Both the position numbers and the translations under genes were made by a program. A stretch of 64,000 nucleotides of DNA from the human T2T-CHM13v2.0 reference genome, Homo sapiens. The notes below the pieces were generated by a model. That model was not told where the DNA came from. It saw only the letters and a program-made list of their open reading frames with translations, and searched no databases. Shown in pieces: positions 1 to 7,490 of the stretch (positions are counted from its first letter, which is position 1; the number at the start of each line of letters is the position of its first letter). Location of the stretch: assembly GCF_009914755.1 (NCBI RefSeq), contig NC_060947.1; one strand, written 5' to 3'.

Positions 1-551
1 GTATGATGAAGTAGAGTGAGAAAATCACGCATCTTGTAAATTCCCATTTTTTAAAAAGTCATAGAAAATAAATGTCTTCTGAGAATGAATTTTTGAAATG
101 GCATTGTTAGACTACTTCTGAAAGTGACACCAGAAGTGACACATTGACATTTGTTCAGTGGACATGGAGCAGAAGACTTAAGGAGGAAGAGAAGGTGGTT
201 CTATGCCAGACTGGTCATATTTAGAAGTCATTTTTATATCATAACCATTGTTTTTTGTGTGCATTTTATTCCTCACTACTGTATATATGATTGACAATGC
301 TAAATACTTTTTTGAATTATCTATTTTTTCTAGATATCCTGAAGTGCCTTATATGTGTTAAAATTAGAGGTAGTAAAATAACATATTTTCCAATTACATT
401 TTTGTTAAAATTTACATGAAATGTTGCTTTGTGGAGGAAATGACCAAACCACTTTTTGAGTAATACATATTAGGTTTGTGCACTAGTTCAGGGGAAGAGG
501 AAGGAGGAGGAAGTGTACAGAGCTTCATGCCAGTGTGCTTACAGTAAGGTA

Positions 552-735
552 AACATGGTAAACCCTGTCTCTACTAAAGATAAAAAAATTAGCCAGGTGT
601 GGTGGTGGGTGCCTGTAATCCCAGTTACTCAGGAGGCTGAGGCAGGAGAATCACTTGAACCTGGGAGGCGGAGGTTGCACTGAACCAAGTTTGCACCACT
701 GAACTCCAGCCTGGGCAACAGAGTGAGACTTGGTC

Positions 736-766
<31 letters not shown>
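552..766 (+). mobile_element. Alu (AluS-like), 5'-truncated, A29 tail, inserted in the retrocopy
   Basis: Starts at AACATGGT..AACCCTGTCTCTACTAAA, continues through the right arm GGAGGCTGAGGCAGGAGAATCACTTGAACC, and ends in poly(A) at 738-766. Confidence 0.95.
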
Positions 767-768
<2 letters not shown>

Positions 769-2420
769 AACCATTGTCCCTATGTCTGTGCGTTTTGTTT
801 TACTTATTTGAGTAAATAGTATATATCAAGAAAAATCAAGTCCCAATTTACAACATTTTGTTTTTCCAGATGTTAAAGAGGTTGCCAGTGTAAGACAAAA
901 GTAGATTAGTAAACTAAAATATTTTGTATATTTTGATTTAAAATTCCTAGGGAAAAAAATGTCTTCTGAAAATTTAAGCACTACTACCCACTGGGTTGAT
1001 GAAAATGGTAGGGTTTATAGGCTAGAATGTTCATATTTGTCAGACTCTTTCAAATTATAACTATTGTTGCATGTGTGCAGCTTATTCAAGAATGTTGGGT
1101 ATATAGTCGACAAGTTAACACCCTACCTGAAACATTTAGTCTGTCTAGATATTTAGAAGTGCCTGACATATATTAAATGTAGAGGTAGTAAAATATCACT
1201 TTGTAAATATATTTTTGTTAGAATTCATAGTAAGTATTGTCTTTTGGAATTGAAATTGTTAAACTGCCTCTGTGAGCAGTATAGTACCATCTATACTTGT
1301 TTAGAACAAACTGCAAAAGGTAACATACAGGCGTGTTCATATTTAGATATTTTCAGACACCATTTTCCAGTATGTTTTGTGCATTTTGTTTTGCTCATGC
1401 TTATAGTATATATAACTGATGAATGAGTCCTAAACTTGCAATATCTAGTCTCTAGATGTTAAGGAGTTTGCCACTGTATGACAAAGGACTTAGTAAAATC
1501 AGCACATTTTGTGCATTTTGTGTTGAAATTCATAGGAGAGCTTGTCCTCCGTAAGTGACTTTTGGATATGAATTTGTTCAACAACCCCTAAGCTTGTACT
1601 TGTCCACTGGAATGAAGACAGAAAGAAGTGAAGAGGGAATGGCTCAAGGCCAAAATGGTCATATTTAGAAGACACCTCAGATTATAACCATTGTTCAATG
1701 CGTGTAGTTTTACAGTGCTGTGTACATAGTGGACAAGTCAATGTGAAATATCTATCCATTTTAGATATTTAGAAGTGCTTGTTGTATTTAAATTAGAAGT
1801 AGTAAGATAACACTTTTTGTAAACAGCTTTTAAAGACTGATGGGAAATATTCTGTTTGAAAGTGGAATTGTTAAACCAACCGTGTGAACAGTGTATATTC
1901 TCTGTACTTGTTCACTGCCTTGAGGGAGGTGGGAGGAAATATATTCGAAAGTGTGTTTTGCTGGAGTGTACTAGAAAATTTAAGTTTATCCATCACCCTG
2001 TATGTTATGTTCATTTCATCTATTTTTGGTATACCATATATATTGTGTATATACTGAACAAATGATTCCTAATTTTATAATATCTACTCTGTAGATATTA
2101 AAGAGGTTGCCAATAAATGAGGAAAGTAGAGTTGGTAAACTAACACATTTTGTACACTTTGCCTTAAAATTCATAGAAAGGCTGTATTCTGAAAAGAAAT
2201 TGTGGAAGTTGAAATGATAACATCAACTCTAAGTGACACAGGTGCCTGTATCCACTGGGTTGGTTGTGAAGAAAAGTTGGAAGAAATTAATGAATCTATA
2301 CTAGAATGTTTCTGTTTAGAAGACACCCGATGTAACCAGTGTTATAAGTGTGTCATTTATTCAAAACCACTCTGTATATAGTGGACAAACTTAAGTCTTT
2401 ATTTGAAACATCTAGTCTTT

Positions 2421-3353
2421 TTTTTTTTAATTTTACTTTACATTCTGGGATATATGTGCAGAACATGCAGGTTTGCTACATAAGTATACATGTGCCATGG
2501 TGGTTTGCTGCACCTATCAACCCATCATCTAGGTTTTAAGCCCTGCATGCATTAGGTATTTGTTCTAAGGCTCTACCTTCCCTTGCCCTCCACTCCCCAA
2601 AAGGCCCCAGCGTGTAATGTTCCCCTCCCTGCGTCCATGTGTTCTCATTATTCAACTCCCACTTATGAGTGAGAATATGTGGTGTCTGGTTTTCTGTTCC
2701 TGTGTTAGTTTGCTGAGAATGATGGCTTCCAGCTTCATCCATGTTCCTGAAAAGGATATGAACTCATTCTTTTTTATGGCTGCATAGTATTCCATATTTG
2801 GGTTGGTCCCAAGTCTTTGCTATTGTAAATAGTGATGTAATAAATGTACATGTGCATGTGTCTTTATAGTAGGATAATTTATAATCCTTTGGGTATATAC
2901 CCAGTAATGGGATTGCTGGGTCAAATGGTATTTCTGGGTTCTAGATCCTTCAGGAATCACACTGTCTTCCACAATGGTTGAACTAATTTACACTCCCACC
3001 AACAGTGTAAAGGCATGCCTATTTCTCCACATCCTCTTCAGCATCTGTTGTTTCCAGACTTTTTAATAATGGCCATTCCAACTCGTGTGAGATGGTATCT
3101 CACTGTGGTTTTGATTTGCATTTCTCTATGACTAATGATGATGAACTTTTTTTCGTATGTTTCTTGGCCACATAAATGTCTTCTTTTGAGAAGTGTCTGT
3201 TCATATCCTTCGCCCACTTTTTAATGTGTTTTTTTTTTCTTGTAAATTTGTTTAAGTTCCTGTAGACTCTGGATATTAGACCTGTGTCCGATGTGTAGAT
3301 TGCAACAATTTTCTCCCATTCTGTAGGTTTTCTGTTCACTCCGATGTTCACTT
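2421..3353 (-). mobile_element. L1PA7/8-like 3' fragment (~930 bp) inserted in the retrocopy
   Basis: Poly(T) followed by the L1 3'UTR (AGGTTTTAAGCCCTGCATGCATTAGG) and ORF2 C-terminus ([25 protein letters not shown]). TSD TAGTCTTT at 2413-2420 and 3354-3361. Confidence 0.93.
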
Positions 3354-5177
3354 TAGTCTTTCTAGATGTTTAGAAGTGCACAAAATATGTTAAGATTAGA
3401 GTCAGTAAAGAACACGTTGTGTAGATATCATTTTGATTCATATGAAATATTGTCTTTTGAAAATTGATGAAACCATTTCTCAGAGCAGTACACATTATTA
3501 TGTTTGTGCTGTTCCTGGGAAGAAGAAGAAAGTGTGAAGAGCTTTATACTAGTGTTTTCATGATGAGGCACAATCGACCATTGTCCCTTATGTCTGCATT
3601 TGTTTTACTGTGCTGTGTGTATAGTATATATAAATAGACAAATGAGTCCTAATTTGCAACATACAAATAATAAAGAGGTTGCTAGTGTATGACAAAAGTA
3701 GAGTAAGTAAATTAATACATCTAGTGCACTTTGTGTTAAAATTTATAGAAAAGACTGTTCTTAAAAGCACTTGCATAAGTGAAATTGTTAAAAATCCCCT
3801 CTAAGCATTACAGATGGTTGTTCCTGTCCATTGGGTAGATAGAGGTGGGAAGGGAAAAGAGTCTAGGCCAGGATGTTCCTATTTAGAAGACATTTTCAAA
3901 TTATAGCCTGTGTTATATATGTGCAACATTTATTCCACTAAATAGTGCTACTCTGTATTTAGTGGAAAACTGAAGTCCTTTTGGAAACATACAGCCTTTC
4001 TAGATATTTAACATAGGTTAAAGTGGAGGGCTAAAATAACACCTTTTATGCATTTTTTAATTTCCTAGGAGTGGTTGCATTTGGAAATGAAATTGTTAAA
4101 TTCGATGCTTTGAAGAGTAAGCTAGCTGTTCATTAGGTAGTGGTGGGTGGAGGGAGGAGGAAGTATGCAAGGAGAAGGATTCTGTGACTGTGAGTTAGAT
4201 TAATTAAAGTGGTTTAACCATTTTTCTATATGTGCATTTTAGTTAATATTGTTGTGTTTTAAAAGATAATTCCCAATGCTCAAAGTATGTTAAAAGTAGA
4301 GGTAGTAAAAAAAAATCCACTTACAAATGTCCTTTTGTTAGTTTTTAGAAAGACCTGTCTTCTGGGAGTAAACTTCGTTAGCCCACCACTTGGAGTTAGA
4401 CATAGTCCTATACTTAGCCACTGGGATGGTGGAACAGGGAGAAGATCAAGGGTGAAGGAAAAGGCTCTTTTGTAGTAACTCTATATCTAAAGATGGTTTT
4501 AGATGATAACCATAGGTCTACATTAGCATTTTTAGCAAAGTTCCTCTGTTTATTGTGGACGAAGTACATTATTGCAACATGTAAGCTTTCTGAAAGTCCT
4601 GTGTGACAATGTATGACAAAAAGTAGAGCTAGTGAATTAGCCAATTTGTAAATAACTTTTTGTTATATTTAATAGAAAATATGCATCTTGGACACAGAAT
4701 TGTTAAATTCCCTCTGAGAAGTGTGTATAAGGATTTGTTTATTAGATTGACAACAAAGGGACAAAAGTAAGTATAAAGGGAAAGAAATATGCAGATGTGT
4801 TCATATTAACATTTTGCTGATATCCATTGATATATGTTAATCTCTTTTGGCTGTACTATAAAAATACATTAAGTAATTCAATGGAAACATATCTTTCTGA
4901 TAATGTTTTAGTGAATTAATTAGCTCTGCTAATGAATTATCTTAGAAACATCATATTTAGTGTATTATGTTGTTTTATGTTTTATCTTAAATTGGGCATT
5001 AAGATAGTGTAGTATTTTAATCAGAACTCTGCCAATGTTTTTATCTAGAGGCATGTTGCCATTTTTGCCTTCTATAAAATTTTTGTTTCAAGAAAAGCAG
5101 GATAACATCTTTTTTCTAACATATTGACTTGGTGTAGTGTATTCTTGGTTATCAAAATTCTCATATAGCTTTGGAAG

Positions 5178-5480
5178 TTTTTTTTTTTTTCAAGACAGGG
5201 TCTCACTCTGTCACTCAGGCTGAAGTGCAGTGATGCAATCTTGGCTCAGTGCAGTGAAACCTCCACCCCCCAGGTTCAAGCAATTCTCCTTCCTCAGCCT
5301 CCTGAGTAGCTGGGATTACAGGCATGCACCACCATGCCCAGCTAATTTTTGTAGTTTTAGTAGAGACGGAATTTCCCCATGCTGACCAGGCTGGTCTCGA
5401 CCTCCTGACCTCAAGTGATCCACCTACCTTGGCCTCCCAAATTGCTGGGATTACAGGCGTGAGCCACTGCACTTGGTCTG
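5178..5480 (-). mobile_element. Full-length Alu (AluS/J-like) in the 3' part of the retrocopy
   Basis: Poly(T) then AGACAGGGTCTCACTCTGTCA...GTGAGCCACTGCACTTGGTC. Flanked by near-identical TGGAAGTTT / TGGAATTTT, a probable TSD. Confidence 0.95.
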
Positions 5481-5689
5481 GAATTTTGAACTGGTAAATA
5501 TTCATGATATGTGAAAAAGCATGGCACACACTATACAACCTCAATCCCATAAAATTGAATGTTTTATCTATATATACACAGGACCTAGAAAGACATGGCA
5601 AACCGTAAACAATTACCAGTTGTGGATAACTTTATTCTTTGCTTCTGGTGTTTTTTAGTTTCTTATAATGCACATATTAACTTTTTAAA

Positions 5690-5722
5690 AATAAAGGCTA
5701 TTTTGAAAATCTGAAAAAAAAA
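5690..5722 (+). terminator. Polyadenylation signal and residual poly(A) tail of the retrocopy
   Basis: AATAAA at 5690-5695, then 18 nt, then A9. Confidence 0.75.
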
Positions 5723-7490
5723 TCAGTACTGTTTAACTGCGCATACTACCTAAAACAGTCTATGGATTCAATGACATCCCCATGAAAATATCAATGACAT
5801 TCTTCACAGAAATAGAGAAAACAATCCCAAAATTTATATGGAATCACAAAATACTCAGAATAACCAAAACTATCCTGGGCAAAAAGACAAAACTGAAAGA
5901 ATCATATTACCTGACTTGAAATTATACTCTAGAGCTACAGTAACTAAACCAGCATGGTACTAGCATAAAAACAGACACGAACTAATGAAACAAAATAGAG
6001 AAACCAGAAATAAATTTATACATCTACAGTGAACTCATTTTCAACAAAGGTGCCAAGAACATATTATACATTGGGAAAAGGCAGTCTCCAATAAATTGTC
6101 CTGGGAAAACTGATATTCATTTGTAGAAGAATGAATCTAAAACCCTATATTTCATCTTTTGCAAAAATCGAATCAAAATTGGTTAAAGACTTAAATCTAA
6201 GACCTCAAAATGTGAAGCTACTAAAAAAAATTGAGGAAACTCTCCAGGTTATTAAACTGGGCAAAGATTTCTTAAGTAATATTCTACAAGCACAAGCAAG
6301 AGAGGAAACAATGAACAAATGGCATCATATCAATTAAAAAGCTTCTGCCCAGAAAAGGAAACAATCAACAAAGTGAGGAGACAACCCCCAGAATGGGAGA
6401 AAATATTTGCGAACTATCCTTCTGACAAGAGACTAATAACTAGAATATATGACATGCTCAAACAACTCTATAGGAGAAAACCTAAACCTAATAATCTGAT
6501 TAAAAAATGGGCAAAAGATTTGGATAGATATTTCTCAGAAAAAGACATACAAATGGCAAACAAATACATGACCAGGTGCTCAACATCATTGATCGTCGGA
6601 GAAATGTAAATAACAGCTACAAAGAGGTATCATCTCACCCCAGTTAAAATGGCTTTTATCCAAAGCACAGGAAATCACTATGAAGAACAGTTTGGAGGTT
6701 CCTCAAAAATACTAAAACTACAGCTACCATGTGATTCAGCAATTCCACTGTTAGGTATATAACAACAACTACAAAAAAGAAATCAGTATAACAAGACAGT
6801 ATCGGCACTCCTATGTTTGTTGCAGCACTGTTCACAATAGCCAAGATTTGGAATCAACCTGTGTTCATCAGCACAGAAACAGATAAAGAAAATATGGTAT
6901 ATATACACAATGGAGAATGGAGTATATATACACAATGGAGTAATATGCAAATGAGATTCTGTCATTTGCAACAACATGGATAGGACTGAAGATCATTATG
7001 TTACGTGAAATAAGGCAGGCACAGAAAGACAAACATTACATGTTCTCACTTATTTGTAGGAGCTAAAAGTTAAAATAATTGAACTAATGGAGATAGAGAG
7101 TGGAAAGATGTTTACCAGAGGCTGGAAAGGGTAGTGAGAGGTTGGGTGTGGTGGCTGGAGTGGGGCTGATTAATGTGCACAGAATTAGTTAGAAAGAATA
7201 AGATCCAGCATTTTATATCACAATAGGGTGACTACAGTCAATAATAACGTACTCATACACTTCAAAATGACTAAAAGTTTATAATTGGATTGTTTTTTAC
7301 ACAAGAATAAATGCTTGAGGTGATGGATACCCCATTTACCTTGATGTGATTATTAAACATTGTATGCCTGTGTCAAAGAATATATATATGTGTGTGTGTG
7401 TGTGTATGCTCCATAAATATATATGTGTGTGTATATATACCCCATATATATATAGCTGCTATGTACCCGCAAAAATTAAAAATTAAAAAA
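5723..7490 (+). mobile_element. L1MA-type LINE-1, ORF2 3' part plus 3'UTR
   Basis: ORF2 remnants ([39 protein letters not shown]), L1MA-like 3'UTR (GCTTGAGGTGATGGATACCCC) and an A-rich end. (TG)n/(TA)n tract at 7380-7455. Confidence 0.88.

What the first reader, a model, noticed from the sequence alone, without database searches (positions are those of the whole stretch)
1..5722. Multi-kb retrocopy of a NORAD-like Pumilio-decoy lncRNA
Seen: ~300-330-nt units alternate B/A, with anchors near 1, 329, 866, 1144, 1451, 1760, 2090, 2411/3361, 3670, 3999, 4290 and 4610. The array ends in AATAAA plus A9, directly followed by unrelated L1 sequence. Known: NORAD is a ~5.3-kb unspliced lncRNA with 12 alternating repeat units that sequesters PUM1/PUM2, and it has retrocopies such as HCG11. 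Inference: this is an L1-mediated copy covering about 4.2 kb of the parent once inserts are removed. It is either a fossil of ancestral primate NORAD or a possible second PUM sponge.
Basis: partly seen in the sequence, partly recalled or inferred. Interest (0 to 1): 0.8.

Follow-up and report, generated by a model that had tools for sequence, protein, structure and literature searches.

The report
Old processed pseudogene of lncRNA NORAD
This stretch of the human X chromosome is an old, decayed, retrotransposed copy of the Pumilio-decoy lncRNA NORAD, one of several dozen such copies in the genome, and it looks like an ordinary dead pseudogene that happens to keep a few features of an ancestral NORAD.

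Summary
Window 1-5713 aligns collinearly, on the + strand, with the chr20 NORAD locus, and the match continues 505 nt upstream of the window. It runs from about NORAD nt 342 to the NORAD poly(A) site and is followed by A9. Three later insertions interrupt it: a partial Alu (551-777), an L1 3' end (2413-3354) and an Alu (5172-5479). It lacks the 308-nt Alu of present-day NORAD.

The copy sits inside an older L1 ORF2. There is no target-site duplication, and about 440 bp of that L1 is missing.

A 1.63-kb piece hits 37 genomic places, counting NORAD and itself. In a tree of 18 copies plus NORAD, this copy has the longest terminal branch, 0.150 substitutions per site.

Pumilio sites have decayed at the neutral rate: 4-6 of 15 are kept against about 4-5 expected. 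The promoter and CpG island are absent. I read it as a dead L1-mediated retrocopy, not a second sponge.

It does preserve a 42-45-nt segment and one Pumilio site that NORAD later lost. Papers already report many NORAD pseudogenes. Interest is low.

The parts
1..550 (+). NORAD retrocopy, segment 1. It continues 505 nt upstream of the window, to chrX 77685495. Window 1 corresponds to about NORAD nt 860, and the copy's 5' end to about nt 342.
   Evidence: Collinear BLAST and global alignment to the chr20 locus L012
551..777 (+). Later insertion: a 5'-truncated Alu with an A29 tail
   Evidence: Present only in the X copy in the global alignment. Rfam Metazoa_SRP match at 592-739, below gathering score. 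A-run at 738-766.
778..2412 (+). NORAD retrocopy, segment 2 (repeat units)
   Evidence: 78.0% BLAST identity over 1686 columns to NORAD
1881..1923 (+). A 42-45-nt stretch absent from present-day NORAD and from young copies but present in old copies, so an ancestral NORAD segment later deleted in the gene
   Evidence: X-only gap. In one search, 6 old copies span it without a break and a 7th (chr16) from its 3rd base; in NORAD and 3 young copies the two sides lie 3 nt apart.
2413..3354 (-). Later insertion: the 3' end of an L1, with a poly-T at its left edge. It splits one A-type unit.
   Evidence: 941-nt X-only gap. High-copy repeat: 15309 first-look candidates, best pairwise identity 84-85%.
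3355..5171 (+). NORAD retrocopy, segment 3. At about window 4014 it passes the site of NORAD's own Alu without containing it.
   Evidence: 308 nt present only in NORAD at that junction
5172..5479 (-). Later insertion: a full-length Alu
   Evidence: 307-nt X-only gap. Rfam Metazoa_SRP matches at 5190-5342 and 5361-5477 on the minus strand, below gathering score.
5480..5713 (+). NORAD retrocopy, segment 4: the 3' end, with AATAAA at 5690-5695, ending at the NORAD cleavage site
   Evidence: 79% identity to the NORAD 3' end. Side-by-side reading of both 3' ends.
5714..5722 (+). Remnant poly(A) tail (A9). Its last bases overlap the first bases of L1 homology, which begins at 5718.
5718..6560 (+). 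Downstream part of the host L1 ORF2, in the same orientation as the upstream part that ends 522 nt before the window. About 430-460 bp of L1 is missing between the two.
3420..3427 (+). UGUAGAUA Pumilio site at NORAD nt ~3080. Present-day NORAD lacks it, but 5 other old copies have it.
   Evidence: 6 of the 12 copies covering that column

Best explanation
This is a dead processed pseudogene of the unspliced lncRNA NORAD. In the germ line, L1 reverse transcriptase copied a NORAD transcript, priming from its poly(A) tail. The cDNA was 5'-truncated at about nt 342 and integrated in sense orientation into an already resident L1 ORF2. The integration produced no target-site duplication and removed about 440 bp of the target.

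The copy has no promoter and has decayed neutrally since. It took up a partial Alu, an L1 3' end and a full Alu. By divergence it is the oldest of the 18 NORAD copies I compared. I put its age at roughly 70-100 Myr; that figure uses recalled neutral rates and is not calibrated by any search. Because it is so old, it records an earlier state of NORAD.

Shown here: homology, limits, inserts, nesting and neutral decay. Inferred: the L1 machinery, the target-site deletion at integration, and the absolute age.
For: 1. **Collinear homology.** The match covers the transcript only, from nt ~342 to the cleavage site 18 nt after AATAAA, followed by A9. Beyond both ends NORAD homology stops: the 3' flank differs from the sequence downstream of the chr20 cleavage site, and both flanks are L1.
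2. **Shared transcript ends in other copies.** 4 full-length copies begin at my coordinate 18-21, and 6 copies end at 5355-5357.
3. **The chr20 locus is the source gene.** Its terminal branch is 0.005, at the end of a comb-shaped tree. Its 5' region has GC 62% and CpG o/e 0.78. The distance from the shared copy start to the cleavage site is 5339 nt, and it has 15 UGUANAUA sites. This matches the description in PMC4947167 (passages read).
4. **Divergence.** 82.7% identity over 4557 aligned columns, K2P 0.20. Only 47% of NORAD CpG positions are kept. CpG o/e in the copy's first 500 nt is 0.15.
5. **Branch length.** The terminal branch is 0.150, the longest of 18 copies.
6. **Nesting.** The upstream flank encodes RVT_1 fragments (E 6.3e-09 and 0.0075, the second below Pfam's cut-off). 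In 4 of the 9 L1 loci that matched both flanks (of 11 compared), the flanks map 428-458 bp apart; in 5 they are farther apart. The host L1 terminal branch is 0.166 for each flank separately, greater than the copy's 0.150.
7. **Neutral decay of Pumilio sites.** 4 of 15 are exact and 6 of 15 lie within 4 nt, against an expectation of 4.0. 88 of 105 specified motif positions are identical (83.8%), against 82.7% overall.
Against: - No target-site duplication. The longest word shared by the two junction zones is 6 nt, and 79% of 500 shuffles reach that. One hallmark of classical L1-mediated insertion is therefore missing.
- The A tail is only 9 nt, and its last bases may belong to the L1 target.
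- About 16 nt between the end of L1 homology and the start of NORAD homology is of unassigned origin.
- NORAD has no introns, so intron loss, the usual proof of an RNA intermediate, cannot be used.
- 9 UGUANAUA sites remain in 4742 nt (shuffle mean 1.2, maximum 5 in 500). If the copy were transcribed, the RNA could still bind Pumilio.
- Expression was not tested.
- Bootstrap support at the base of the tree is low (32-63), so 'oldest' rests on branch length and not on branching order.
Confidence: 0.95

Rival explanations
1. The copy is a functional second Pumilio sponge. It would be transcribed from an acquired promoter, and its remaining Pumilio sites would sequester PUM1/PUM2 as NORAD does.
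For: 9 UGUANAUA sites remain in 4742 nt, above every one of 500 shuffles (maximum 5). Another retrocopy, HCG11, is reported as expressed (PMC4947167, passage read).
Against: - Site retention equals the neutral expectation.
- The first ~342 nt, the promoter and the CpG island are absent.
- The upstream sequence is the middle of an L1 ORF2.
- Three transposon insertions totalling about 1.5 kb interrupt the units.
- No gene or functional element is annotated in the window (hub annotation supplied with the finding).
[quoted passage not shown] That statement concerns the copies that are >90% identical.
Confidence: 0.03
2. The element is a chimeric retrocopy made by template switching. Reverse transcriptase copied NORAD RNA and then jumped to an L1 RNA, so the upstream L1 piece belongs to the insert and not to the target.
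For: The upstream L1 is in the same orientation and joins the NORAD 5' end within about 16 nt. No target-site duplication was found at the NORAD limits.
Against: The downstream flank is the same kind of L1, in the same orientation. In 4 of the 9 L1 loci that matched both flanks it resumes only 428-458 bp further along ORF2; in the other 5 the flanks map farther apart. Its terminal branch length is identical to the upstream flank's, 0.166 against 0.166. That fits one element split by the insertion and would be an odd coincidence for an independent target.
Confidence: 0.03
3. The element is a DNA-level (segmental) duplicate of the NORAD locus or of another copy, not an independent retrocopy.
For: None found. 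It was considered only because NORAD has no introns, so intron loss cannot serve as evidence of an RNA intermediate.
Against: Homology stops exactly at the cleavage site and is followed by an A-run. NORAD homology stops at both ends and both flanks are L1. In the tree the copy has no well-supported sister (bootstrap 32). Its identity to all other copies is 73-83%, no closer than its identity to NORAD.
Confidence: 0.01

Closest known systems
NORAD (LINC00657), chr20 locus (L012)
   Same: Same sequence from nt ~342 to the poly(A) site. Same order of alternating ~300-nt units. 6 of its 15 UGUANAUA sites are still present at orthologous places.
   Different: The copy has no promoter or CpG island and lacks the first ~342 nt. 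It differs at about 17% of aligned positions. It lacks NORAD's internal Alu, carries three transposon insertions of its own, and keeps a 42-45-nt segment and one Pumilio site that NORAD lost.
HCG11 (the chr6 26.39 Mb copy, L013; the name is assigned from position and recalled)
   Same: Both are NORAD retrocopies ending at the same poly(A) site.
   Different: HCG11 is full length (from coordinate 19-21) and 93% identical to NORAD counting mismatches only. It contains the NORAD Alu, keeps 12-13 of 14 Pumilio sites, and has a terminal branch of 0.035 against 0.150 here. It is reported as expressed (PMC4947167).
Other old NORAD retrocopies (chr6 28.48 Mb, chr16 64.53 Mb, chr8 26.82 Mb, chr7 25.27 Mb, chr4 77.12 Mb, chr3 136.53 Mb)
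   Same: Terminal branches of 0.10-0.13. Those of them that span the site (chr6 28.48, chr16 64.53, chr4 77.12 Mb) lack the NORAD Alu. All but chr8 26.82 Mb contain the 42-45-nt ancestral segment. All are fragmented by later insertions.
   Different: This copy has the longest branch (0.150). It is one of the more complete old copies, covering 4559 of 5357 NORAD columns.

Membership tests
L1-mediated processed pseudogene (retrocopy) of NORAD | Collinear homology to the mature transcript only, with no promoter or flanking genomic homology | tested here: met
   the chain covers NORAD nt ~342 to the cleavage site; both flanks are L1.
L1-mediated processed pseudogene (retrocopy) of NORAD | Ends at the parent's polyadenylation site and is followed by an A tail | tested here: met
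   AATAAA at 5690-5695, homology ends at 5713, A9 at 5714-5722. The chr20 locus has no A-run at that point.
L1-mediated processed pseudogene (retrocopy) of NORAD | Target-site duplication flanking the insert | tested here: not met
   The longest shared word is 6 nt, which is chance level. Instead, about 430-460 bp of the host L1 is missing. Target-site deletions at L1-mediated insertions are known (recalled, not checked in a paper here).
L1-mediated processed pseudogene (retrocopy) of NORAD | Loss of introns relative to the parent | not testable with these tools
   NORAD is unspliced (PMC4947167, passage read), so this criterion carries no information.
L1-mediated processed pseudogene (retrocopy) of NORAD | Independent branch from the parent lineage, with decay at the neutral rate | tested here: met
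   Comb-shaped tree with a terminal branch of 0.150. The host L1 is at 0.166. CpG positions are 47% kept.
Functional NORAD-type Pumilio decoy lncRNA | High density of UGUANAUA sites | tested here: inconclusive
   9 in 4742 nt, against 15 in 5339 nt for NORAD. This is above the shuffles but is explained as a leftover of the parent.
Functional NORAD-type Pumilio decoy lncRNA | Pumilio sites kept better than surrounding sequence (purifying selection) | tested here: not met
   4-6 of 15 kept against 4.0 expected. Motif positions are 83.8% identical against 82.7% overall.
Functional NORAD-type Pumilio decoy lncRNA | Own strong promoter or CpG island and an uninterrupted transcript | tested here: not met
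   The 5' ~342 nt and the promoter are absent. CpG o/e is 0.15 against 0.78 at NORAD. Three transposon insertions are present.
Functional NORAD-type Pumilio decoy lncRNA | Abundant cytoplasmic expression and PUM1/PUM2 binding | not testable with these tools

The most novel reading that the evidence does not exclude
The copy is transcribed at a low level, for example by read-through or from a promoter in a neighbouring repeat. Its 9 surviving UGUANAUA sites would then make it a minor X-linked Pumilio decoy, a second HCG11-like case that arose from a much older retrocopy.
Probability: 0.03. Interest if true: 0.55.

Novelty: new member of a known kind. Interest (0 to 1): 0.15.

Why it matters
As a locus it matters little. 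Papers already say that NORAD has a 'large number' or 'high number' of pseudogenes in human and mouse (PMC4947167, PMC6407921; passages read), and nothing suggests that this one is active.

Its modest value is as the oldest rung of a dated series of NORAD retrocopies:
- The 18 copies compared form a comb along the NORAD lineage. Summing the internal branches of the tree by hand, the NORAD lineage changed by about 0.069 substitutions per site while this copy changed by 0.150. That suggests NORAD evolved at a little under half the neutral rate.
- The old copies show that NORAD once had a Pumilio site at nt ~3080 and a 42-45-nt unit segment that it later lost, and that its Alu arrived late.
- The series could be used to trace the turnover of binding sites in a functional lncRNA.

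A practical point: such copies can attract multi-mapping NORAD reads in RNA-seq and CLIP. The eLife paper handled this by mapping to Norad first.

Tried and rejected
- **Tandem Repeats Finder.** It found no long-period array because the units are too diverged. The periodicity had to be shown by the repeat finder and self-BLAST.
- **Rfam.** 7 matches at E up to 1, none reaching a gathering score. All are Alu/7SL-derived or chance. No family matched the NORAD units.
- **Target-site duplication.** Nothing above chance.
- **Pfam on the downstream L1 pieces.** 0 families for 2 of the 4 pieces. Only the upstream pieces hit RVT_1, and the second is below the curated cut-off.
- **The chr10 46.21 Mb copy.** It was the closest hit to the window copy (83%), so I checked whether it was a special relative. 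It is simply a copy of intermediate age, 85.6% identical to NORAD.
- **A further 20 retrocopy loci.** The tree therefore holds 18 of the 36 non-NORAD places, counting the window's own. The 18 were the higher-scoring ones, not a random sample.
- **Literature.** Searches for 'NORAD' with 'retrocopies' (1 paper, listing only), 'NORAD pseudogenes' (4 papers held, 2 listed) and 'NORAD' with 'processed pseudogenes' and 'lncRNA' (13 papers, listing only) turned up no catalogue of individual copies. I did not open supplements, which might hold one.
- **UGURUAUA count.** My count of UGURUAUA in the chr20 locus is 11, not the 17 stated in PMC4947167. The chance expectation agrees (0.39 against 0.38). 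I did not resolve the difference.
Full report
**What is there**

Reading window 1-6600 and running repeat finder (33 direct-repeat families, the 20 largest shown) confirms two kinds of roughly 300-nt unit that alternate.
- A-type starts (TCTAGATATTTAGAAGTGC-like) are at 329, 1144, 1760, 3361 and 3999.
- B-type starts (AGATGTTAAAGAGGTTGCCAGTGTATGACAAA-like) are at 867, 1453, 2092 and 3664.

A self-BLAST of the copy with inserts removed gave 9 off-diagonal matches, at offsets 589, 628, 1217, 1225, 1275, 1864, 1904, 2493 and 2502. That is a two-unit period of about 600-630 nt. Tandem Repeats Finder reported only short-period rows, because the units are only about 65-70% alike. AATAAA is at 5690-5695 and A9 at 5714-5722.

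**Identity**

A search of the window's own assembly with window 780-2410 gave 85 matches. They fall into 37 places (clustered), counting the window itself and a chr20 locus at 37.77 Mb. Only 40 of 50 first-look candidates were scored, so 37 is a lower bound.

The chr20 locus is the source gene, for these reasons:
- 4 full-length copies start at the same base (my coordinates 18-21), and 6 copies end at 5355-5357. That defines a 5339-nt transcript.
- Its 5' region has GC 62% and CpG o/e 0.78, and it carries 15 UGUANAUA sites.
- Its genomic sequence has no A-run after the cleavage site.
- In the tree it is the tip of the backbone, with a terminal branch of 0.005.

This fits the published description of NORAD: 5.3 kb, unspliced, a CpG-island promoter, a single poly(A) site, and 12 units of about 300 nt (PMC4947167, passages read). 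My count of UGURUAUA is 11 where the paper says 17. The chance expectation agrees (0.39 against 0.38). I left that difference unresolved.

**Anatomy of the copy**

BLAST and a global alignment give one collinear chain on the + strand, from NORAD nt ~342 (505 nt before the window) to the cleavage site at window 5713.

Gaps present only in the X copy:

| Window | Length | What |
|---|---|---|
| 551-777 | 26 + 192 nt, split by the aligner | partial Alu with A29 |
| 1881-1923 | 42 nt | ancestral NORAD segment (see below) |
| 2413-3354 | 941 nt | L1 3' end, minus strand |
| 5172-5479 | 307 nt | Alu, minus strand |

The Alus are supported by sub-threshold 7SL matches in Rfam. The L1 piece is supported by 15309 first-look candidates in the genome, with best pairwise identity 84-85%.

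The one large gap present only in NORAD is a 308-nt Alu inside NORAD. This copy lacks it. So do the 5 other old copies that span the site, making 6 of 6. The 3 young full-length copies all contain it (3 of 3).

Over 4557 aligned columns, identity is 82.7% (491 transitions, 298 transversions, K2P 0.20). Only 47% of NORAD CpG positions are unchanged.

**Insertion site**

The 601 nt upstream of the copy match a high-copy repeat (9907 candidates) up to 522 nt before the window. They encode RVT_1 fragments, with E 6.3e-09 and 0.0075; the second is below Pfam's cut-off. The downstream flank matches the same L1 loci from window 5718 on.

Of 11 L1 loci compared:
- In 4, the two flanks map 428-458 bp apart.
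- In 5, they map further apart, presumably because those loci carry insertions of their own (about 770 to 1070 bp).
- In 2, the downstream flank found no match.

Each flank, treated separately, has a terminal branch of 0.166. No L1 consensus was built for this. There is no target-site duplication: the longest shared word is 6 nt, and 79% of 500 shuffles reach that length.

I infer a single old L1 that was split by the retrocopy with loss of about 440 bp. That large target-site deletions occur at L1-mediated insertions is recalled knowledge and was not checked in a paper here. About 16 nt at the 5' junction is unassigned.

**Age and place in the family**

A NORAD-anchored alignment of 18 copies and an ML tree (GTR+G, Alu columns removed) give a comb-shaped tree.
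- Young copies have short terminal branches: chr5 0.014, chr12 0.019, chrX 79.43 Mb 0.032, chr6 26.39 Mb (HCG11 by position) 0.035.
- Old copies have long ones, 0.10-0.13.
- This copy has the longest, 0.150.

Support at the base of the tree is low (32-63), so 'oldest' rests on branch length. The backbone from the deepest node to NORAD sums to about 0.069 (added by hand from the tree).

The order host L1 (0.166) > copy (0.150) is consistent with the nesting. With recalled neutral rates of 1 to 2.2 x 10^-9 per site per year, 0.150 corresponds to about 70-100 Myr. This is a rough figure that no call here calibrated.

**Is it a second sponge?**

Of NORAD's 15 UGUANAUA sites, 4 are intact in the same columns and 6 within 4 nt. 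The expectation from overall identity is 4.0. 88 of 105 specified motif positions are identical (83.8%), against 82.7% overall.

The copy still holds 9 sites in 4742 nt (shuffle mean 1.2, maximum 5 in 500). This is the residue expected from neutral decay of a very site-rich parent. The promoter and first ~342 nt are missing, the upstream sequence is the middle of an L1 ORF2, and three insertions break the units. The annotation supplied with the finding lists no gene or functional element in the window. Expression could not be tested here.

**Fossil value**

- The 42-45-nt stretch at 1881-1923 is present without a break in 6 other old copies (chr6 28.48, chr3, chr7 25.27, chr6 29.04, chr9 38.68, chr4), and in chr16 from its 3rd base. 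In NORAD and 3 young copies (chr6 26.39, chr12, chr5) the two sides lie 3 nt apart. NORAD therefore deleted it after the old copies were made.
- A Pumilio site at NORAD nt ~3080 (window 3420) is present in 6 of the 12 copies covering that column, all of them old, and absent from NORAD.
- Two further sites, at nt ~1723 and ~2050, are seen in 5 of 15 and 6 of 13 copies but not in NORAD. This copy does not keep them.

**What is known**

[quoted passage not shown] It names four human copies that are >90% identical over >4 kb and singles out HCG11 as the expressed one. [quoted passage not shown]

My searches (listings only, apart from the two papers above) found no catalogue that names this copy. 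I opened no supplements.

**Verdict**

The thing itself is an ordinary member of a known family, though an unusually old one. Interest is low.

Noticed in passing
L012 (chr20 NORAD locus), my NORAD coordinates 3672-3980: The Alu inside present-day NORAD is present in 3 of 3 young full-length retrocopies and absent from 6 of 6 old copies that span the site. At its junction, about 13 nt of the old copies aligns twice, which looks like the Alu's target-site duplication. The Alu therefore entered NORAD between the times of the copies with terminal branches of about 0.08 and 0.035.
   Followed up: partly
L015 (chrX 79.43 Mb) and the chr6 loci L013, L020, L019 (26.39, 28.48 and 29.04 Mb): A second, much younger NORAD retrocopy lies 1.75 Mb from this one on chrX. 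Three copies of different ages lie within 2.7 Mb on chr6p22. I did not test whether this clustering exceeds chance.
   Followed up: no
NORAD nt ~1723 and ~2050 (alignment): Pumilio-type sites absent from the chr20 NORAD sequence are present at these places in 5 of 15 and 6 of 13 retrocopies, including young ones (chrX 79.43 Mb, chr12). This suggests fairly recent loss of sites in the gene itself, or parallel gains in a TA-rich context.
   Followed up: no
window 5718-6760: The old L1 ORF2 that hosts the retrocopy is not among the stretches listed as masked in the hub's note. This is a reminder that unmasked sequence here can still be ancient repeat.
   Followed up: partly
window 2398-2416 and 3345-3360: The inserted L1 3' end appears to be flanked by an imperfect direct repeat of about 14-15 nt (…CATCTAGTCTTT / …CACTTTAGTCTTT), read by eye.
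   Followed up: no
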